Positions 4,868 through 37,749 of a DNA stretch of 64,000 nt are shown piece after piece. The translations under genes and the position numbers were made by a program. The number at the start of each line of letters is the position of its first letter. Position 1 is the stretch's first letter. Source of the stretch: Eledone cirrhosa (lineage: Eukaryota). The stretch is taken from the NCBI GenBank assembly GCA_964016885.1, contig CAXHJY010001034.1:20207-84206 (forward strand), read 5' to 3'. The notes under the pieces are model-generated. The model was not told the origin of the DNA, searched no databases, and saw only the letters and a program-made list of their open reading frames with translations.

Positions 4868-5740
4868 CATATTTCGTTATCGATCTATGTAGGGTTAGTT
4901 ACAAAATATTACAAAATATCAGATAAGGAATATATTTACTTACAGCCGTTGTCAAAAGCAATGAGAATTTGACTCAATATCAATAGTAAATTGAGTTCTA
5001 TGATCTTATTTGGAGGTAGCTGAAGAACAAACCAATCAAATGGTATTTTGCCATATGATGTTAAGATGAAGTATAACTCACTTTAGTTGAGGTCATAACC
5101 CTTTGAAAGGAATGGTTGAATGGTGTTTTACTTATCTATATTCACCTAAAAATTCCATACAACACAACTCAACATTTAATTTTTACATTCCTTTTTAAAC
5201 TTCACTCCACCATCTACATTCCACTATCATTATATCAATCCCTTTTTCCTCATAGGTTCTTTATAGTAATTCTATTTTTAACACGATTCAACCATTCTTT
5301 TCAAAGGGTCATGACCTCAACTAAAGTGAGTTTTACTTCATCTTAACATCATATGGCAAAATACCATTTGATTGGTTTGTTCTTCAGCTACCTCCAAATA
5401 AGATCATAGAACTCAATTTACTATTGATTTTGAATAAAATTCTCATTGCTTTTGACAACGGCTGATGATATACATGTAAGTAAATATATTGCTTATCTGA
5501 TAACGAAATATGCGTACGATGTATTATTATCACCTAGAAACGATCGTAAAGCAGTGAAGTATATTTCTAATGACTTGAATTTTTATTTCATTGTTTTAAC
5601 TTATATCATAACTCTGTTTTCCTTTTGATGTTTTATTGTTTTCCGGGATTTATTTTAACCTACAACATTTTCAACATATGGATTACATTGAGTCCTTCAT
5701 GCAGACTAGACCCCAAAACTTACCGTGGATATCTCTGTAC
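4868..5740 (+). mobile_element. PLE pseudo-LTR with a long inverted duplication
   Basis: Arms ~4868-5121 / 5286-5511; related to the element at 30260-30705; TA flanks. Confidence 0.7.
5443..5557 (+). ncRNA. Type I hammerhead ribozyme, U3-A8 core variant, long stem II
   Basis: TCATTGCTT-TTGACAA-cGG...CCta-GAAAC(gatc)GTA-AAGCAGTGA; 9-bp stem I; palindromic ACGATCGT stem III. Confidence 0.7.
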
Positions 5741-5950
5741 ATATATATATCGATATATATATACATATATACATACATATATATCTATATATATATCTGT
5801 ATGTCTATATACAAACACATATATATATATATACATATATACACACACACACACACACACATTGTATATATATATATGTATATATGTATATATACTCACA
5901 TATCCATTTGTTATTAGCACAGATTAACAGTTTCAGCAAACAATTTCTGA

Positions 5951-13176: not shown

Positions 13177-13409
13177 GAGTATTTGGCTACGGCCAGTCAC
13201 ACAAACCTACAACAGATCCCGAACAAGGAATGCCTCTGCTTTGAAGGTTTTTTTAAGTGGAGAAAGGCCTTGCACTCGACCAATCCCACTCTCTGAGTAT
13301 CGAAAACACTACCCCAAAAGGAGAACTGGTCAACATCATTGGATGCTTCCGAAGCCACAGGTTTTTTCTCAGAGTATATACATACATATACTCATGCATA
13401 CACACATAC

Positions 13410-15565
13410 ATACATGGTGGCTGCCAACTCATTTTCGAGTACGGCCACTACTTTATATCCATGTAGGAGAACCCCTACCGAAGCGCTCAACGACTGTGAC
13501 TTTTTAGTCCAGCCAGCGACTTGAAAACTCTGGTACAAGCACTACACTTGTGCCGTGAAGCTTTTATAGTGAGCAAAGGCACTGCACAAAGCCAGTCCAA
13601 CCCAGTACAACCCAGTACATACATACATACATACATACATACATACATACATACATACATACATACATACATACATGGTGGCTGCCAACTTGTTTTCGAG
13701 TACGGCCACTACTTTATATCCATGTAGGAGAACCCCTACTGATGGGCTGAACGAGTGTGACTTTTTAGTCCAGCCAGCGACTTGAAAACTCTGGTACAAA
13801 CACTACACTTGTGACAATTATTGACACATAGTATTGGGCCCATGGCACCATGTGACGACAAGTGCAGAGAGATCTCCAGATATAAAGCAATGCCTGTGCC
13901 GTGAAGCTTTTATAGTGAGCAAAGGCACTGCACAAAGCCAGTCCCACTCTCTTAACCAAGATGATATTTACGAAAAAGAAGAACATGTCAACATCATTGG
14001 ATACCATCAGGGTTGCAGGTGTTATATCAGAGTTTTCCTTCTCCTAGAATTCTGCCTTGACAAAGGCTAAGGGGTCATCTCTCCCGGTGATTTTGGATGG
14101 CCATTGACTCTTAAGAGCTCCTTTGCTCTTTGACAGGTTTTGTTTTTAGTTCTGCAGGATGTCCAAAGTCATCCTCCTCACCAAGAAACCTTGGTGGGGT
14201 TGCCAGTTTAGTCGCCAACGACCCGACCATGAGACAGGTTGTACTGGGATACATGTTACCAGTAGCACCAACTGGTGACCTGACATACATACATACATAC
14301 ATACATACATACATACATACATACATGGTGGCTGCCAACTCGTTTTCGAGTACGGCCACTACTTTATATCCATGTAGGAGAACCCCTACCAATGCGCTAA
14401 ACGAGTGTGACTTTTTAGTCTAGCCAGCGACTTGAAAACTCTGGTACAAACACTACACTTGTGACAATTATTGACACATAGTGATGGGCCCATGGTACCA
14501 TGTGACGACAAGTGCAGAGAGATCTCTAGATATAAAGCAATGCCTGTGCCGTGAAGCTTTTATAGTGAGCAAAGGCACTGCACAAAACCAGTCCCACTCT
14601 CTTAACCAAGATGATATTTACGAAAAAGAAGAACATGTCAACATCATTGGATACCATCAGGGTTGCAGGTGTTATATCAGAGTTTTCCTTCTCCTAGAAT
14701 TCTGCCTTGACAAAGGCTAAGGGGTCATCTCTCCCGGTGATTTTGGATGGCCATTGACTCTTAAGAGCTCCTTTGCTCTTTGACAGGTTTTGTTTTTAGT
14801 TCTGCAGGATGTCCAAAGTCATCCTCCTCACCAAGAAACCTTGGTGGGGTTGCCAGTTTAGTCGCCAACGACCCGACCATGAGACAGGTTGTACTGGGAT
14901 ACATGTTACCAGTAGCACCAACTGGTGACCTGACATACATACATACATACATACATGGTGGCTGCCAACTCGTTTTCGAGTACGGCCACTACTTTATATC
15001 CATGTAGGAGAACCCCTACCAATGCGCTAAACGAGTGTGACTTTTTAGTCTAGCCAGCGACTTGAAAACTCTGGTACAAACACTACACTTGTGACAATTA
15101 TTGACACATAGTGATGGGCCCATGGTACCATGTGACGACAAGTGCAGAGAGATCTCCCGATACAAAGCAATGCCTGTGCCGTGAAGCTTTTATAGTGAGC
15201 AAAGGCACTGCACTAAGCCAGTCCCACTCTCTTAACCAAGATGATATTTACCAAAAAGAAGAACAAGTCAACATCATTGGATACCATCAGGGTTGCAGGT
15301 GTTATATCAGAGTTTTCCTTCTCCTAGAATTCTGCCTTGACAAAGGCTAAGGGGTCATCTCTCCCGGTGATTTTGGATGGCCATTGACTCTTAAGAGCTC
15401 CTTTGCCCTTTGACAGGTTTTGTTTTTAGTCCTGCAGGATGTCCAAAGTCACCCTCCTCACCAAGAAACCTTGGTGGGGTTGCCAGTTTAGTCGCCAACG
15501 ACCCGACCATGAGACAGGTTGTACTGGGATACATGTTACCAGTAGCACCAACTGGTGACCTGACA
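13410..15565 (-). mobile_element. Head-to-tail array of a ~610-bp bipartite non-autonomous RTE derivative (full units 13675-14285, 14325-14935, 14955-15565; partial 13410-13615)
   Basis: Each unit has the RTE 5'UTR-like motif CTAGGAGAAGGAAAACTCTGA, a zinc-finger remnant ([10 protein letters not shown]) and a 3' stem-loop plus (TATG)n tail; no RT. Confidence 0.75.
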
Positions 15566-15593
15566 TATATACATACATACATACATACATACA

Positions 15594-16345
15594 TAAACAT
15601 CGTTTTACCTCAGCTTTTCCACGTTAGCAAGGTTTGGACGAGATTTTTCCAATACAGCATCCCTTCACTCATTGACGTCCTTCGCCATCTCCTCTTTGAA
15701 CTTCAGTCGTTTAAGATCATTTCCCTCTTCCACTACCCGGGTCTTCCTTCAACTCCCTCTACTATAGCTCCCTTCCACTGGGATTTATTGGTACTTCTTC
15801 AACCAACGATTATCTCTATACCTCACATGTCCCCACCAGCGCAGTCTTCACTCCTGCACAGGTATACGAGCTTTTCTCTCTGCTCATCCATGCTTTGTCG
15901 TTCAAGCATGTTAAGATTGCACATCCAGCGAAGCATGCTTACTACATTTCTCTCCAGCCACCATATATCCTCTGTCTTCACTACCCATGTTTCATTGCCA
16001 TGCAACGCACGCAGGCCACATACAGCCAGCCTTTTGTTCATAGTGAGAAACCTTTTGTTGTCAACAGAGTTAGTAGCTCCCTGGACATTTTTTCCATTGT
16101 TCTTATTCTACCTACTATGCTCTCAAAGCAACCCCCTTTACTGCTAATTAGAGCACCTAGGTAATAGTAGCTATCAACTACATCTATGGATCCTTAACGG
16201 GATTGGAAAATGTTTATTTCACTGATGCTTTTATCATTGTACATCTACTATCCTTGTAGATCTGTCACATACAAAGTGTATCTCTTCTTTTAGTCTGCCT
16301 GCTATCCCACTACACATCTTGTGTACACAAGATTTACATTGTGTG
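15594..16345 (-). mobile_element. Old RTE (PHD-type) 3' fragment
   Basis: LHGNETW...MLRWMCN; PHD half at ~16260-16345; 3' end similar to 2375-2426. Confidence 0.8.
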
Positions 16346-22349: not shown

Positions 22350-25300
22350 AAAGCAAAAACAGAGGATGTAACAAAAAAAGAAACAATGAAAAATTCCCCA
22401 ATAGAGGGAAACTTCCGAGGGCCATTCGTGGAGAAAGCCCATTAAAAAAGCCCCGGTGACCCTGACCACCAGGTCAAGTGCCCTCTCCCAGTTTTCCACC
22501 TTCAATTTACAGGCGCATACTCAGAGTAGGCCCATTTTCTGGGGCCATGCTTGCCTCTCTCACCCATCTTTCAACAAAATGCTGGGAAGTGAGTAGTTCC
22601 CTTTCTACCCTGATTTTCCTTTTCAAATGAAATTTGAAAAAGTTAATCGGGCCATCACCGAAGAGGTAAGTACTCGTCTTCAGCCCTTTCAAACGCGTCC
22701 ACCATACTATCTCTTTCGCCATGGCTACCAAACAGATAAAAACTGCCTGCCCTTCCCGGCTAAAGGAAGAGGGCGGGTCACTCCTTACGATGGACTCAGC
22801 TGATAGCTGGATGCGTCCTACACGCGACAGCAGGTGTTCGACATAAACCCACAAGTCAGCAATGCTCGGACACTGGACGAGTGCGCGCAGGACGGTTTCG
22901 TCGCCCTGCGCGCATCTCGGTCATGTCCGGCTGACGGCACCTCCATGCCTGGCAAAACTCCTTGGTAGCACTGCCAGGCCAGGGATTTCTGGAAGTTGTC
23001 CATAGGCCCCGGCCCGAAAGTTCTCCTGAACAGATTGGCTAGTTGATTTTCGTCGACGCCTAGAGTCTCCCCAAGTATGTCGTCGCTCTTTCCCTCCACT
23101 AATCCTCTTTAGAATGCCGAGGTGGAGTTTCCACCGATCGCATTGCCCGACTGGTCGAGGGCTGTGAGGGCCTGAAGACATTCCAGTCTCCAAGCGCTCC
23201 CTCTCGGTCTTCGCTTGACCCAGGACTGCAGCTCTGTTAAGGAGACGAGCTGGGGAAACACGCGTCTAGCAAACGGCGACCACGACTGATCACCGTCGAG
23301 GAAGAGGTGGAGATGTTGTAGCCTGAGCGCGTGTGTGCGCATCATCAGCCACGGCATGGCCAGCCATCCACGTAGCGGGTGTTGACAGCAGATGGACTGC
23401 CTGACCATCAGAGCGCGCCCCTTCCACAAAAAGTGAAAGAGCAAACGCTCCAGCGCAGTCAGGCGGGGCTTAGTACAAGGCACGACGGTCAGGCGGTAGT
23501 AGATGACAGACGCGATGTACGCATTCGCCACCTCCACTCGACCTTTCAGGGATAGCTTCCTCTCTGCCCATTTCTGGGTGAGAGAAGCCATCCTGCTCGT
23601 CAACTCGTCCCAGTTTTTGTCCGTCTGGAGGTCTAGACCGAAACAGACCCCTAGGAATTTAATCAGTCCGTCCGTCCAGCGCCCGACGACGCTGTTGGAC
23701 GGCATGGACCTGCCTCTCCAGGTGCCGAGCTGCAGGCCCACCGACTTTTACTGGTTGATCATTGCTCCTGTCACCGCCTCGTATTCTCTTAGTGTAGTGC
23801 CGATTGCCTCGATGTGTTTGGCGTTCGACACCACTACGATGACATCGTCTGCATATGCTGACACGGTTATTCTGCATCCCAGTTCGCGCGGGACCCCCCT
23901 CAACGGCTCCAGTTTGTGCAGTAGTGGGTCGAGAGTCAATACGTACAACAGGGACGAGAGGGGACATCCTTGGCGGAACGAGCGCATGATGTTGAACAGT
24001 TCCGAAAGGTGACCGTTCACTCTCACCACAGAGCAGATGTTGTGCATGGCAACGATCCAGCCTCTGAAGACGGGCTAAAGCCAGCCGCCCTCAGGACTGT
24101 CGCCAGATAACGATGGTCGACCCTATCGAAAGCTTTCGACTGATCTAAATTGATCAAAGACCCACCCATGGATCTGTCTGGGATGGCGTATGCCTGCGCC
24201 TCTCCCACCAGACAATCAACGACAAGCGCCAACCTCTTTGCTTGTACCTTGGCCAAAATCTTGAACTCTGTGTTTAGCAGAGTTATGGGCCTGAAATTAT
24301 CTATGTTATCCCCCTTGTTCGGATGCTTTCTCAGCAGTGCCATTGCTCCTCGGCTCACAGAGCTAGGAATTCTCCCGTTCTGTCGCCAGTTGCAGTAGAC
24401 GTCCGCCAAGAGGTCTCCGAACAAGTCTGGCATGTGTACGTAAAGTTCGAAGGACAGACCATCCAAACAAGGCGATTTACCCCTTTTGCAGCCAGTCATT
24501 GCCTCCCGTCATTCAGCGCTGTTATCGGCTTTTCGCAACACTCCACCTCAGTGGCCGAGAGCCGCGGCAGTCCGTCGAGGTAGGTGCTAAAGTCCATCCC
24601 GCGATCCGTCCCGCCGCTGCCCCCGAAAGCTGGGCGAAATGTCGCTGAAAAGCTTCACATATTTGCTCGGGATCGAGTAGCATACGCCCGTCGTGGTCCA
24701 CCAAAAACCGGATCGTGGCTTTGTTGCCACGACGCGCCTCCGCCACTCGAACGGCTTTCGTGCCCTCGTGTCTGACAGCACGCAGCCTACTCTGACAACG
24801 CAGAGAAGAATTTTGAATTGTGGACAGCCTATGCTAGACCTATCTATGTCCCTACAACATAGCCTATCTAGATATGATCTGGATGACCTGATGCGGTTTG
24901 TCCATGTTCACATTGACATATTCGGGAAATCCAGACGGTACTTGTCAGACAGTTGAAACCGTCTGAGCAGGTTTGCGGGGCTTTTACACCCTCCTCCCCT
25001 ATCCACTAATCCCACACAGCCCCAGCGTGCATCTAAGATCCCGTTCCAGTCGTCCACTAACACTGAAGAGCGGGACGTTCCAAGAAAGGTCTCCAGACGC
25101 CAGAAGAAATCAGGCCGCCCTGCTCCTGGCGGGGCATAGACGGCCACTAGCCTGAAATCTTAACCGTCTCCGCTGGTCGCGTTCAGCACCACCAACTTAC
25201 CTTCTAGGTCCAGGAAGATGGCCCGTATGACGAGATCCAAGCCTCTCCGAAAAAGCACAGCAACTTCTCCCCCCGATTCTGGACGGCTGGGAGATCCGTA

Positions 25301-28509: not shown

Positions 28510-29940
<1,431 letters not shown>

Positions 29941-29943
29941 ACA

Positions 29944-30018
29944 GCTTGTCTGATGATGTCACGACACTCGCACACAGAACAGTGTGGCCAGTGTCGTCAC
30001 TGAAATATATATCACAGC
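29944..30018 (+). ncRNA. Type I hammerhead ribozyme in a ~200-bp solo pLTR (29941-30144)
   Basis: GCtTGT-CTGATGA-t-GTcACGACACTcgCACAC(agaaca)GTGTGgccAGTGTCGTcACt-GAAA-tatata-TC-ACAGC; palindromic stem III, AUC triplet. Confidence 0.75.
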
Positions 30019-30221
30019 ATTATTATTAAAGAAATTCAACATCTGAAACTACTTCGCTTTTCCTTATTCGATATTTACAACGTCACTCCTATGTGGAAAA
30101 AGTACGTTGAGTGCTTGATTGAATTGTATCAATGTTTACCCTAATATATATATACATATATATATATATATAGATACATACATATATATATATAGATACA
30201 TACATATATATATATATATAG

Positions 30222-30259
<38 letters not shown>

Positions 30260-30260
<1 letters not shown>

Positions 30261-30704
30261 TAAAATATTAAACAAATAATGAATAAAACAATGAAACAGT
30301 TCCTTATATTAAACAAAAAAAGTTCATTATTTAACGATCGTTTCTAGGATATATATATTATTTCTGAAGACGGCGTATATGTGTGTTTGGTATGTATATT
30401 TAATCTTGATAGTTTGTATAATTTTGTATAATTTTGTACATAGATCTGTTGAATATGCATGCCAATTCTAACACATATATATCCTAGAAACGATCGTTAA
30501 ATAATGAACTTTTTTTGTTTAATATAAGGAACTGTTTCATTGTTTTATTCATTATTTGTTTAATATTTTATCTTGACTCTGTATACCGTTTATCTTTCAC
30601 CGAAAGTGATTTTTCATTACATCTCTTCTTTCCATGATATCCGGAATACATTGAGTTCTTCATACGGATTGGACACTACCGTAAACTCTTGGTAGATTTA
30701 TCTA

Positions 30705-30705
<1 letters not shown>
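30260..30705 (+). mobile_element. PLE pLTR with fold-back (arms 30260-30356 / 30475-30571)
   Basis: Perfect inverted arms; the same 3' end recurs at 42404-42593 and 55168-55224. Confidence 0.75.
30357..30505 (+). ncRNA. Type I hammerhead ribozyme with extended stem II
   Basis: ATTATTT-CTGAAGA-cGG..TATATGTGT..TTGG..TATGTATATT / AATATGCATG..CCAA..ACACATATA..CCta-GAAAC(gatc)GTT-AAATAAT. Confidence 0.72.
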
Positions 30706-33258
<2,553 letters not shown>

Positions 33259-33261
33259 ATA

Positions 33262-36200
33262 AGTTTCTTTTATTTGCCACTAGGGCATCAAAAGTGGGAC
33301 AAGTACAAAGGGGGGAGTTTACACAAAAAGGCGTCCTCAATAAGGAGGAGGCAATAACAAAATATAAAAATAAAATAAGATATAACAAAAAATTAAATTT
33401 TTAACAAAATCCTCAATAGAGAGGAGGCGCCTTGGGGGGTCGCACACACCCCCGAAAAAAGTGTGCAACCCTTTTCCTCAGGAGCACAGAGAGGGGGTGC
33501 TCCCTCGTTCCTTCCTCTTTTCCACCTACAGGCTTATGTAAAGAGAAGGCCCATTCACACGGGCCATTCTCGCCACTTTCACCCACCTTTCATAAAAACG
33601 ACTGGGGTGCAGCACCTCTCTCTCCATCCTGATCCTTCTTCCGAAATGATATCGGAAGAAACGGACCAGTTGTTGGCCAGAGAGAAAGGTGCCTGACCTC
33701 AGTCCTTTCAGACGCGTCCACCATACAACCTCTTTCGCCATGGCTATTACGCACAGAAACACCGCCTCTGCTTCATCTTTGAAGGGGGGAGGCGGCTTGA
33801 TCATTACAATAGACTCGGTGGTCAACCGGATCGGTCCCACCCTTGACAGCAGTTGTTCGACATAGCCCCACAGATCGGCTACGCCCGAGCAGTGTACCAA
33901 TGCGTGTGCAACGGTTTCCTCGTCGCACACGCATCTGGGACAGATCTTTTTGGCGGGGTCCCTACCCGGGCGCCCGTGTCTGTAGAGCCTTTCTCGAACG
34001 GGTAAAGCCCCTCGGTAGCACTGCCAGGCCAGGGACTTCTGGAAGTTGTCCATAGGTCCCGGGCTGAATGTCCTACCGAACAGGCTGGCCAGTTCGTCCT
34101 CCTCCATGTCTAGGGCTTCTCCGAGGGCGTCGTCGCACCTGCTGCGTACCAGCCCTCTATAGAATGTTGCGGTGGAGTCTCCACTGATAACCGGATCCGC
34201 CTGCCAGAGGGCGGTGAGCACCTGGGCACACTCAGTGTGCCAGGCGCCCAGTTTTCTCGGTCTTTGCTTGACCCAGGATTGCAGCTCGGTGAGTGAGACG
34301 AGTCTGGGAAAGGTTCGTCTCACAAACGAGGCCCACACCGGTTGTCCGGTGAGGAATACGTAGAGGTGCCGTAGCCTTAATGCGTGTTTACGCATCATTA
34401 GCCACGGCATCCCCAGCCCTCCTTTCGAAGGGTGTTGACAGCAGATGGATCTCCTCACCATAGGAGCCCGCCTCTTCCAAAGGAATTGGAAGAGCGCGCG
34501 CTCCATCTTGGTGAGGGTTTCCCTTGGGCAGGGCACTACGGTCAGGCGGTAGTAGATGACGGACGCTATATAAGTGTTCGCCACCTCCGCCCGACCTTTC
34601 AGGGATAGTTTGCAACTGGCCCACTTCTGGGTCAGTGCAAACACCCTGTTCGTAACCTCCGCCCAGTTTTTCTCCACCTGGAGGTCCGGTCCGAACCAGA
34701 CCCCGAGCAACTTCACCGGGCCCTCCGTCCAGCGTCCGACGACGCCATCGGAGGGCATCGGTCTGCCCCTCCACGTGCCGAGTTGCAAACCGATCGACTT
34801 GTCCCGGTTCAGCTTAGCCCCTGTGAACTTTTCGTACTCCTCCAGTAAGGTGCCGACCGCCTCGATTTCGGAGGCCGTCGACACCATTACTGTCACATCA
34901 TCGGCGTAGGCTGACACCGCTTTCCGCAATCCCGGTTCCAAAGGGATGCCCTGCAACAACTCCAACTTCCGCAGTAGTGGCTCGAGAGTCAACACATACA
35001 GAAGGGAGGAGAGAGGGCACCCTTGTCGGATGGACCGCGCGATTTTGAACGGCTCCGAGAGGTAGCCGTTCACCTTGACCCTAGAGCAGATGCGGCTGCT
35101 GTGCATAGCAGTGATCCAGCCCCTGAAAACGGGTCCGAAGCCTGCCGCCGCTAGCACCGCATCCAGGTAACCATGGTCGACCCTATCGAACGCCTTTGAT
35201 TGATCCAAGTTGATCAGAGCCCCACCAAAGCCGGGTTCGTTCCCAACCCTCTCTATGATGTATCGCATGAGGTGGAGGTTGTCATGGATGGTCCTGGACG
35301 GGATAGCGCATGTCTGCGCATCTCCCACCAGGTTGCCCACGACAAGCGCCAACCTCTTTGCTAGCACATTGGCCAAAATCTGTAACTCTGTATTTAGCAG
35401 AGTTATGGGCCTGAAGTTACTTATTTCGTCCCCCTTGTTCTCGTCCTTCCTCACTAGCGTGACTACACCCTTGGTCACAGTACAGGGAATTCTCCCGTTC
35501 TGTTGCCAGTTGCAGTAGACCGCCTCGAGGAGATCGGGGAACAAGTCCGGCATAGCTAGATATAATTCGTAAGGAAGACCATCGAGACCCGGGGATTTGC
35601 GTTTGCCGCATTGGCTCAGCACGTCCTCTATCTCAGCGGCCGAAATCGGCTCCTCGCAGGACTTCGCCTCCCTGTCCGAGAGGCGCGGCAGGCCGTCGAG
35701 GTATGGACCGAAGTCCACGTTCCCAACCGGCTCCCCGCCCCTCCCGAACAGTCGGGCAAAGTGCCTTTGAAAGGCCTCACACATCTGCTTAGGCTCAAGA
35801 ATCGCCCGTCCATCCAGGTCTCGCAAAGACCGGATGGTGGATTTAGTTCCACTGTTGGCCTCTGTCACGCGGGCCCAGCTAACAGCTTTGGCCCCCTCGT
35901 TCCCTAGAGCACGTATTTTACTTCGGACAACGCAGCCTTCGTGCTTCGCGTCGAAAAACTGGCTCAAAGCCGTTCTCGACGCTAGCACTCTGGCCACGTC
36001 GCCGCTTCTAATTGCCTCTTCTACTCTATCTATTAGCTCCCTTTCCTTCCTATTCCTATCCGCAGCTAGAACCTTACTAAATTCAATCGAGACTACTCTA
36101 ATCTCTCTCTTTAGAGATACCCACCACCTGCTGTTGACGATCGCTCCAGTCAACCGTTCCTTAACTAACGTACTAATCCGATTCCTGTAGGCTCTACTTG

Positions 36201-36731
36201 CCGGCAAGGACAAGTTGAGCTTCCAGTAACCGGGGCCCTGTCTATGAGTTCTGTCAAGGTTGACCATGCAGGTCACTAATTTGTGGTCTGAATAGCCAAC
36301 CATGCGCATTTTTGGACAACTTAAAAAGTCCTTATCCTTAATTCTAACTAAGAACCTATCTAGGTACGACCTAGATGATCCGCTACGATTTGCCCAAGTC
36401 CAGGTTGGCGCAGTCGGAAAGTGGCGAGAATGGCCCGTGTGAATGGGCCTTCTCTTTACATAAGCCTGTAGGTGGAAAAGAGGAAGGAACAAGGGAGCAC
36501 CCCCTCTCTGTGCTCCTGAGGAAAAGGGTTGCACACTTTTTTCGGGGGTGTGTGCGACCCCCCAAGGCGCCTCCTCTCTATTGAGGATTTTGTTAAAAAT
36601 TTAATTTTTTGTTATATCTTATTTTATTTTTATATTTTGTTATTGCCTCCTCCTTATTGAGGACGCCTTTTTGTGTAAACTCCCCCCTTTGTACTTGTCC
36701 CACTTTTGATGCCCTAGTGGCAAATAAAAGA

Positions 36732-36734
<3 letters not shown>
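33262..36734 (-). mobile_element. Young 5'-truncated L1/Tx1-like LINE with an inverted duplicate of its 3' end
   Basis: Open ORF2; arms ~33263-33580 / 36417-36734; AATAAA just before each TA junction. Confidence 0.92.
33526..36420 (-). CDS. L1/Tx1-like ORF2 (endonuclease C-terminal part, RT, Cys/His C-terminal domain), 5'-truncated
   Basis: SYLDRF, SDH, WKLN, SPGLDGLP, NFRPITLLN, LDQSKAFDRVDH, RQGCPLS, AYADDV, CPRC..EETVAHALVHC; the first ~38 aa of the tracked ORF come from the inverted arm. Confidence 0.9.
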   Translation of the reverse strand, partial: FPTAPTWTWANRSGSSRSYLDRFLVRIKDKDFLSCPKMRMVGYSDHKLVTCMVNLDRTHRQGPGYWKLNLSLPASRAYRNRISTLVKERLTGAIVNSRWWVSLKREIRVVSIEFSKVLAADRNRKERELIDRVEEAIRSGDVARVLASRTALSQFFDAKHEGCVVRSKIRALGNEGAKAVSWARVTEANSGTKSTIRSLRDLDGRAILEPKQMCEAFQRHFARLFGRGGEPVGNVDFGPYLDGLPRLSDREAKSCEEPISAAEIEDVLSQCGKRKSPGLDGLPYELYLAMPDLFPDLLEAVYCNWQQNGRIPCTVTKGVVTLVRKDENKGDEISNFRPITLLNTELQILANVLAKRLALVVGNLVGDAQTCAIPSRTIHDNLHLMRYIIERVGNEPGFGGALINLDQSKAFDRVDHGYLDAVLAAAGFGPVFRGWITAMHSSRICSRVKVNGYLSEPFKIARSIRQGCPLSSLLYVLTLEPLLRKLELLQGIPLEPGLRKAVSAYADDVTVMVSTASEIEAVGTLLEEYEKFTGAKLNRDKSIGLQLGTWRGRPMPSDGVVGRWTEGPVKLLGVWFGPDLQVEKNWAEVTNRVFALTQKWASCKLSLKGRAEVANTYIASVIYYRLTVVPCPRETLTKMERALFQFLWKRRAPMVRRSICCQHPSKGGLGMPWLMMRKHALRLRHLYVFLTGQPVWASFVRRTFPRLVSLTELQSWVKQRPRKLGAWHTECAQVLTALWQADPVISGDSTATFYRGLVRSRCDDALGEALDMEEDELASLFGRTFSPGPMDNFQKSLAWQCYRGALPVRERLYRHGRPGRDPAKKICPRCVCDEETVAHALVHCSGVADLWGYVEQLLSRVGPIRLTTESIVMIKPPPPFKDEAEAVFLCVIAMAKEVVWWTRLKGLRSGTFLSGQQLVRFFRYHFGRRIRMEREVLHPSRFYERWVKVARMARVNGPSLYISL

Positions 36735-36785
<51 letters not shown>

Positions 36786-36848
36786 TACATACATATATAT
36801 ATACATATATAGATACATACATATATATATACATATATATATATATAC

Positions 36849-36881
<33 letters not shown>

Positions 36882-36914
36882 CATATATATATACATATAT
36901 ACATATATATATAC

Positions 36915-36952
<38 letters not shown>

Positions 36953-37002
36953 ATACATATATATATACATATATATATATATACATACATATATATAAAT
37001 AC

Positions 37003-37043
<41 letters not shown>

Positions 37044-37090
37044 CATATATATAAATACATATATATAAATATATATATATATATACATAC

Positions 37091-37143
<53 letters not shown>

Positions 37144-37146
<3 letters not shown>

Positions 37147-37749
37147 GGTGGCTGCCAACTCGTTTTCGAGTACGGCCACTACTTTATATCCATGTAGGAG
37201 AACCCCTACCGATGCGCTGAACGAATGTGACTTTTTAATCCAGCCAGCGACTTGAAATCTCTGGTACAAAGACTACACTTGTGACCATTATTGACACATA
37301 GTGCAGGGCCCATGGTACCATGTGATGACAAGTGCAGAGAGATCTCCAGATATAAAGCAATGCCTGTGCTGTGAAGCTTTTATAGTGAGCAAAGGCACTG
37401 CACAAAGCCAGTCCCACTCTCTTAACCAAGATGATATTTACCAAAAAGAAGAACAAGTCAACATCATTGGATACCATCAGGGTTGCAGGTGTTATATCAG
37501 AGTTTTCCTTCTCCTAGAATTCTGCCTTGACAAAGGGGTCATCTCTCCCGGTGATTTTGGATGGCTATTGACTCTTAAGAGCTCCCTTGCCCTTTGACAG
37601 GTTTTGTTTTTAGTCCTGCAGGATGTCCAAAATCACCCTTCTCACCAAGAAACCTTGGTGGGGTTGCCAGTTTAGTCGCCAACGACCCGACCATGAGACA
37701 GGTTGTACTGGGATACATGATACCAGTAGCACCAACTGGTGACCTGACA
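37144..37749 (-). mobile_element. Dispersed copy of the ~610-bp non-autonomous RTE derivative
   Basis: Same boundaries and high similarity to the units at 13675-15565. Confidence 0.8.

What the first reader, a model, noticed from the sequence alone, without database searches (positions are those of the whole stretch)
33262..36734. L1/Tx1 element with two 3' ends: tail-out, head-to-head insertion in (TA)n
Seen: the last ~320 bp (ORF2 end, 3'UTR, AATAAA) is duplicated in inverted orientation at the truncated 5' end. I saw one internal mismatch. The junction has a short apparent microhomology (CTTTC, ~36417-36421). Both ends run into (TA)n without poly(A). Established: L1 twin priming inverts an internal 5' segment but does not duplicate the 3' terminus. 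Inference: (TA)n is self-complementary, so both ends of a cut may each prime reverse transcription from the RNA 3' end, with the two cDNAs then joined.
Basis: partly seen in the sequence, partly recalled or inferred. Interest (0 to 1): 0.72.

Follow-up and report, generated by a model that had tools for sequence, protein, structure and literature searches.

The report
LINE copy with mirrored tail end
One broken copy of a common jumping gene carries a backward duplicate of its own last 318 bases at its front end, likely made when its freshly copied DNA folded back on itself while landing in a TA repeat; it looks like a rare accident rather than a regular behaviour of the family.

Summary
The structure is in the assembly: a 5'-truncated L1-clade (Tx1-like) LINE on the minus strand (33263-36420) is joined, through a 4-nt microhomology (GAAA, 36417-36420; not 5 nt), to an inverted copy of its last 318 bp (36417-36734, one mismatch); both ends run into (TA)n. 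It looks like a one-off: the junction occurs once in the 3.0-Gb assembly, and 0 of 190 other copies examined (98 picked for a TA flank) have an inverted arm at the 5' junction, in a family with at least 1,927 3' ends that mainly targets (TATC)n. Both arms share a base found at only 2 other places genome-wide, both in the other subfamily. Closest known: R2 'snap-back' junctions and head-to-head L1 bridges in tumours. No read or contig spanning the junction was seen. The scan noted SINE snap-backs in this genome before (unchecked).

The parts
28510..33261 (.). Left (TA)n array with AGAT/ACAT interruptions; target of the primary 3' end
33263..36420 (-). Body: 5'-truncated Tx1-like LINE, the last 3,158 nt of a 5.7-5.8-kb element, cut inside the endonuclease domain; 3' part of subfamily r2, first ~174 nt of subfamily r1 type
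33526..36420 (-). ORF2 remnant, open for 964 codons: end of endonuclease, RVT_1 (E 4.8e-25), zf-RVT (E 3.1e-5, below curated cut-off)
33263..33580 (-). Left arm: true 3' terminal 318 nt (ORF2 end, 3' UTR, AATAAA), followed by TT then TA repeats
36417..36420 (+). Junction microhomology GAAA shared by the truncated body end and the start of the inverted arm
36417..36734 (+). Right arm: inverted copy of the 3' terminal 318 nt, followed directly by (AT)24
33394..33394 (-). Rare variant (sense A, family T) in the left arm, shared with the right arm
36603..36603 (+). Same rare variant in the right arm
36491..36491 (+). Only internal difference between the arms: CpG-type G>A in the right arm
36735..37143 (.). 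Right (TA)n array; interruptions lie on the same strand as in the left array, so the flank is not a mirror image

Best explanation
A LINE copy carries an inverted duplicate of its own last 318 bases, likely made by cDNA snap-back during insertion into a TA repeat. Inferred steps: the nicked (TA)n strand primed reverse transcription at the RNA 3' end, and synthesis stopped after 3,158 nt. The free cDNA end (GAAA) paired with TTTC 2.84 kb back on the same strand and was extended, by the RT or a host polymerase, along the cDNA through the element's 3' terminus into the TA flank. Only there did the new strand acquire (AT)n that can pair with the (TA)n of the other cut end, which closed the gap. 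In the family's usual (TATC)n target the two ends would be identical rather than complementary and could not pair this way. Shown: arm limits, 4-nt microhomology, shared rare base, unmirrored flanks, rarity. Inferred: the timing, the polymerase and the pairing step.
For: Both arms carry 33394/36603 A; every other haplotype printed has T or a gap there, and the exact 31-mer occurs at 4 places genome-wide: the two arms and two copies of subfamily r1. The closest sibling found (L279, 99.7%) is not among them. Both arms are of subfamily r2 (r1 differs at 14 diagnostic positions of the 318 nt), the minority type (43 against 109 of 153 typed). 4-nt microhomology, p about 0.016. The arm ends exactly where a copied strand first becomes complementary to the other TA end. 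Snap-back junctions are described for R2-mediated insertions (PMC11371274, PMC11331408; passages). The family's cDNA ends do re-pair on short homology: 7 of 190 copies have same-direction internal jumps.
Against: The shared base must then be an RT error or source-borne. A toy likelihood (RT error rate of 1 in 7,000 recalled, not from a call) gives 0.014 for snap-back, 0.031 for later repair and 0.007 for priming on RNA, so it favours later repair 2:1, and one base carries the whole argument. One of the six variants that looked private in my sample (35197) turned up at 13 other places, so a variant can be lineage-borne. The right end lacks the TT of the left end; this needs a mispaired TA primer or later slippage (6 of 23 TA-picked r2 copies end this way). 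0 of 190 other copies show any inverted element piece at the 5' junction. The loop is long and the RNA must be removed first. No read spans the junction.
Confidence: 0.45

Rival explanations
1. Fold-back repair after insertion: an ordinary copy later broke at or near its 5' side, a resected end folded back at the 4-nt homology, copied the 3' end and re-annealed to the TA array. Same chemistry as the best explanation, later and without the RT.
For: Explains the shared base with no extra event: this copy has 1.9 single-copy substitutions per kb, typical of the family, and such variants look unselected (173 of 511 synonymous, 34%, against 31% expected and 26 of 34 among widely shared variants). 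Highest toy likelihood. Inverted duplications from self-annealed 3' ends are described at L1-made breaks (10.1101/2024.12.14.628481, passages).
Against: Needs a second rare event at the same copy; the junction looks like an ordinary 5' truncation point. The right arm has its own CpG change and a different terminus, so the duplication is not recent. The low prior is my judgement, not a measurement.
Confidence: 0.25
2. Double priming at the RNA 3' end: both cut TA ends primed reverse transcription at the tail of one RNA, or of two RNAs from one source, and the two cDNAs joined at GAAA.
For: The right end is a normal family terminus: GAAAC-(AT)n at 59 places, against 20 for GAAAC-TT-(AT)n and 43 for GAAA-(TA)n. 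Both arms are of one subfamily. Lineage-borne rare variants exist. Extension of both break ends, also on different RNAs, is described for L1.
Against: The shared base would have to be in the RNA, yet no other r2 copy with the exact 31-mer exists in the assembly. If TA symmetry drove this routinely it should recur: 0 of 98 TA-picked copies and no tail-out pair within 20 kb among 121 other TA-flanked ends. The family shows no classical 5' inversions either (0 of 190), against 18-22% in human L1 (PMC12016303).
Confidence: 0.17
3. Two insertions at separate TA sites or times, joined head to head by a deletion or as a bridge between two insertion intermediates, with later conversion between the arms.
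For: Head-to-head bridges of two 5'-truncated L1s, each with its own tail, occur in tumours (10.1101/2024.08.27.596794, passages). No target duplication is visible here. The two arrays differ in make-up (AGAT-rich left, ACAT-rich right).
Against: The shared rare base and shared minority subfamily need conversion or coincidence. Target duplications were detected in only 35 of 102 informative copies by my crude test, so their absence says little. No empty allele was found to test whether the flanks were once adjacent.
Confidence: 0.07
4. Library or assembly chimera on a small unplaced, TA-rich contig.
For: Junction seen once, on contig C1061; no spanning contig or read among the rows shown for four runs; identical arms would share the rare base.
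Against: The right flank is not a mirror of the left (TACAT/TAGAT 44 against 3 reverse on the left, 27 against 0 on the right). The arms differ at a CpG and at the terminus. The runs laid seem to lack this copy altogether (36603 reads T in all covering contigs and reads of X7, X1, X14), so they do not test it.
Confidence: 0.06

Closest known systems
'Snap-back' 5' junctions of R2-protein-mediated insertions (PRINT; PMC11371274 and PMC11331408, passages read)
   Same: The cDNA 3' end is joined to the antisense of its own cDNA before the junction to the target forms.
   Different: Natural germline copy of an APE-type LINE; the copied stretch runs through the element's own 3' terminus so that both ends look like 3' ends; 2.84-kb loop; resolved in a self-complementary repeat.
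Head-to-head L1 bridges with two tails from synchronous insertions (10.1101/2024.08.27.596794, passages read)
   Same: Two 5'-truncated pieces in inverted orientation, joined at their 5' breakpoints, each with a 3' tail.
   Different: There the pieces come from two events at two loci and mark translocations or inversions; here both arms share a rare base and no rearrangement is shown.
L1 twin priming (as described in PMC12016303 and 10.1101/2024.08.27.596794, passages; the original 2001 paper not read)
   Same: Inversion with microhomology at the junction.
   Different: The inverted piece there is an upstream segment, with overlaps of median 12-22 bp; here it is the 3' terminal 318 bp, 2.84 kb away from the breakpoint.
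Inverted duplications at L1-made break ends (10.1101/2024.12.14.628481, passages read)
   Same: A self-annealed 3' end primes synthesis at a short homology and yields an inverted duplicate.
   Different: There genomic DNA at the reciprocal end is duplicated through small hairpins; here the element's own tail is.
Tx1-clade microsatellite targeters Kibi (TC)n and Koshi (TTC)n (PMC4494074, passages read)
   Same: L1-type ORF2, insertion into microsatellites, no poly(A).
   Different: Target is (TATC)n and (TA)n; no tree against named Tx1 elements was built.
Penelope-like elements with inverted pLTRs (PMC3846280, passages read)
   Same: Retroelement bounded by inverted copies of a terminal segment.
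   Different: Regular feature of another class; here a single accident in a LINE family.

Membership tests
L1 clade / Tx1-like LINE | ORF2 with AP endonuclease, RT and C-terminal zinc motif, closest to L1 ORF2p | tested here: met
   Full-length copy L204: Exo_endo_phos, RVT_1, zf-RVT (the last below its cut-off); best solved relative L1 ORF2p E 2e-48 against R2 6.5e-19
L1 clade / Tx1-like LINE | Two ORFs in the full-length element | tested here: met
   ORF1 frame of about 590-640 codons followed by a 1,153-codon ORF2 frame in L206, L230, L204; ORF1 has no Pfam match
L1 clade / Tx1-like LINE | Microsatellite target preference | tested here: met
   5' flank is (TATC)n in 57 and (TA)n in 7 of 92 unselected copies; target duplications of median 20 bp where seen
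L1 clade / Tx1-like LINE | Phylogenetic placement with named Tx1 elements | not tested
   No reference Tx1 proteins were fetched; 'Tx1-like' rests on architecture and target
Classical twin-primed 5' inversion | Inverted piece is the segment just upstream of the non-inverted piece | tested here: not met
   Arm maps to reference 5487-5803, the body starts at 2647
Classical twin-primed 5' inversion | One target-site duplication around the whole insert | tested here: inconclusive
   None visible here; seen in 35 of 102 informative copies
cDNA snap-back junction | cDNA end fused to the antisense of its own sequence at a microhomology | tested here: met
cDNA snap-back junction | Inverted piece copied from this copy's own strand | tested here: inconclusive
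   One shared rare base supports it; a single base cannot exclude an RNA-borne variant or conversion
cDNA snap-back junction | Formed during insertion | not testable with these tools
   Needs alleles from a population or an insertion assay
Two-event head-to-head L1 bridge | Two independent RNAs or insertion events | tested here: not met
   Arms share subfamily and a rare base
Two-event head-to-head L1 bridge | Flanks come from two different loci | tested here: inconclusive
   No second allele of the locus among the best 40 matches for either flank
Penelope-like element with inverted pLTR | PLE-type RT with GIY-YIG endonuclease (recalled) | tested here: not met
   AP endonuclease and L1-type RT instead

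The most novel reading that the evidence does not exclude
Target symmetry opens a second route for LINE integration: in self-complementary (TA)n, both cut ends can engage the element's 3' tail, so a LINE with no terminal repeats yields tail-out copies bounded by long inverted repeats, a product that directional targets such as (TATC)n or poly(T) cannot give. In the boldest form both ends prime reverse transcription at the RNA 3' end.
Probability: 0.17. Interest if true: 0.55.

Novelty: new variant of a known kind. Interest (0 to 1): 0.3.

Why it matters
How non-LTR retrotransposons start their second strand and close the 5' junction is still open. This copy looks like a natural record of a cDNA end priming on itself across 2.8 kb, a product so far seen mainly in engineered R2 insertions, and it suggests a testable rule: tail-out products should form on self-complementary targets only. 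As a single case in a family of about two thousand copies it changes little by itself, and it has no sign of function or of further mobility.

Tried and rejected
A unit that moves with its inverted repeats: rejected, the junction occurs once. Two arms from different subfamilies: rejected. A genome-wide search for tail-out pairs in one pattern could not be run; the count rests on 190 fetched copies and on the positions of 100 and 121 listed ends, about a tenth of the family, and exact patterns miss mutated ends. The inversion filter was faulty (it also dropped the window's own arm); one search repeats it correctly and recovers the arm. Reads: (four runs, two samples) showed 15 of 61 joints, none changing strand; one search showed no spanning record among 24 of 715 pieces; alleles of this copy are absent or nearly so in those runs, so neither call tests the junction. 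An empty allele was sought with both flanks; both are repeats, and the best other hit (L247) does not share the wider flanks. A mutational hot spot at the shared base: 2 recurrences in about 1,900 copies are not clearly above background, so not claimed. The TT/AT difference between the ends does not separate RNA from DNA templates: a TA primer ending in T mispairs the same way on either. PMC1190285 (Gilbert 2005) is not held.

Full report
Observation. The window holds a LINE on the minus strand from 33263 to 36420 and an inverted copy of its last 318 bp at 36417-36734, with one mismatch at 33506/36491. The ORF on the minus strand is open for 964 codons and matches RVT_1 and, weakly, zf-RVT. 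The left end reads GAAAC-TT-ATATATA, the right end GAAAC-(AT)24.

The family. The window lies on contig C1061 of a 3.0-Gb assembly. An exact 29-mer of the 3' end occurs 1,927 times. Full-length copies are 5.7-5.8 kb with two ORFs and fall into two subfamilies, r1 and r2, about 87% alike overall. ORF2 has endonuclease, RT and zinc-motif matches and is closest to human L1 ORF2p among solved structures. The 5' flank is (TATC)n in 57 and (TA)n in 7 of 92 unselected copies; no poly(A) is the rule. This fits a microsatellite-targeting Tx1-like element (compare Kibi and Koshi, PMC4494074, passages); I built no tree. Earlier notes of the scan call the genome octopus-like; I did not check this.

How common is the structure? 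The junction 30-mer occurs once. I fetched 8 kb around 190 other 3' ends: all 58 others of type GAAAC-(AT)6, all 20 of type GAAAC-TT-(AT)6, 20 of 43 of type GAAA-(TA)n, and 92 of the first 100 listed on the largest contig (7 of those were already in the first two sets and one lies inside another region). None has an inverted family piece at its 5' junction; the only inverted neighbours are old relatives (65-85%) 650 bp or more away or beyond the 3' end, and short matches inside the element; the same script recovers the window's arm. Among 121 other TA-flanked ends no tail-out pair lies within 20 kb. Classical 5' inversions are absent too (0 of 190), against 18-22% for human L1 (PMC12016303, passages). 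Same-direction tandem neighbours (23 of 190) and internal jumps (7 of 190) are common. This covers about a tenth of the family.

Where did the arm come from? Both arms are r2 at the diagnostic sites, and both carry A at arm position 187 (33394, 36603), where the other copies printed have T or a gap. The exact 31-mer with this base occurs at four places: the two arms and two r1 copies that share none of the body's other rare bases in the stretch held. The body has six substitutions unique in my sample, 1.9 per kb, typical of the family. Across the family such single-copy variants are 34% synonymous (173 of 511) against 31% expected without selection and 76% (26 of 34) among widely shared variants, so most arose at or after insertion rather than in a working source. 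Against this, one of the six (35197) occurs at 13 other places, one of them a close sibling, L279, of the same r1/r2 mosaic type: some rare bases are inherited. L279 is not among the carriers of the arm base. A toy calculation for the pattern 'one shared, one right-only, none left-only' gives 0.007 for two primings on RNA, 0.014 for copying from the cDNA at insertion and 0.031 for a later duplication (the RT error rate in it is recalled). With my priors this gives about 0.45 for snap-back at insertion, 0.25 for later fold-back repair and 0.17 for double priming. The argument rests on one base.

Why the arm stops at the 3' terminus. Inference: a strand copied back along the cDNA has nothing to pair with at the other cut end until it runs off the element into the target. 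In (TA)n it then ends in (AT)n, complementary to the other end. In (TATC)n both ends would read the same. The loss of TT at the right end follows if a TA primer ending in T mispairs with the first T or U; 6 of 23 TA-picked r2 copies end this way, and the geometry is the same on RNA and DNA.

Artefact? Interruptions of the TA arrays lie on the same strand on both sides, so the flank is not mirrored, and the arms differ at a CpG and at the terminus. No public run tested the junction: no spanning record was among the rows shown, and the runs seem to lack this copy. No second allele of the locus was found. A target duplication is not visible, but my test found one in only 35 of 102 informative copies (median 20 bp).

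Comparison with the literature. Snap-back junctions, in which the cDNA 3' end primes synthesis on the cDNA before the target junction forms, are a named low-frequency class in R2-mediated insertions (PMC11371274, PMC11331408; passages). Two-tailed head-to-head L1 bridges arise from synchronous insertions in tumours (10.1101/2024.08.27.596794; passages); recombination between two insertion intermediates was shown with reporters (10.1101/2025.09.17.676864; abstract only). Inverted duplications from self-annealed ends occur at L1 breaks (10.1101/2024.12.14.628481; passages; also PMC10191854, passages). Inverted terminal copies are regular in Penelope-like elements (PMC3846280; passages). In seven searches I saw no description of a single-site LINE insertion with an inverted copy of its own 3' terminus, but I read passages only, saw no supplements (those of the two tumour preprints may list such cases), and the 2001 and 2005 L1 papers were not read.

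Verdict. Real in the assembly, probably biological, rare, and best read as a fold-back product of a known kind with one unusual feature: it copies through its own tail and closes in a self-complementary repeat. Interest 0.3.

Noticed in passing
window 36247-36420 (body positions 1-174); L126, L279, L134: The body is a mosaic of the two subfamilies (r1-type towards the 5' side, r2-type after); L126 and L279 share this build, so a recombinant lineage has spread.
   Followed up: partly
L077, L154, L167, L199, L201, L202, L222: 7 of 190 copies have same-direction internal jumps, the six inspected with short homology at the join, while 0 of 190 have twin-priming inversions: this family seems to jump forward but not invert.
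   Followed up: partly
L140-L231: Copies stack head to tail: 22 of 92 unselected copies have another 3' end within 300 bp upstream, against 1 of 97 TA-picked ones, as expected for a directional (TATC)n target.
   Followed up: partly
L206, L230, L204 (full-length copies): ORF1 stop is followed directly, in the same frame, by the ORF2 frame; ORF1 has no Pfam match.
   Followed up: no
L262, 5' flank next to the junction and about 300 bp beyond the 3' end: A 33-34-bp inverted match between the two flanks: a short snap-back on target DNA or an older element with inverted ends.
   Followed up: no
window 22523-24803: An older relative of the same LINE group, about 71% identical, on the same strand.
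   Followed up: no
window 37144-37740, 13375-15595: A roughly 600-bp repeat that sits in TA/TACA arrays, several times in the window and with over 2,500 candidates in the genome.
   Followed up: no
reference positions about 5358-5471 of subfamily copies (L264): A weakly self-complementary stretch (70%) just before the ORF2 end and the start of the arm; possible RNA hairpin.
   Followed up: no
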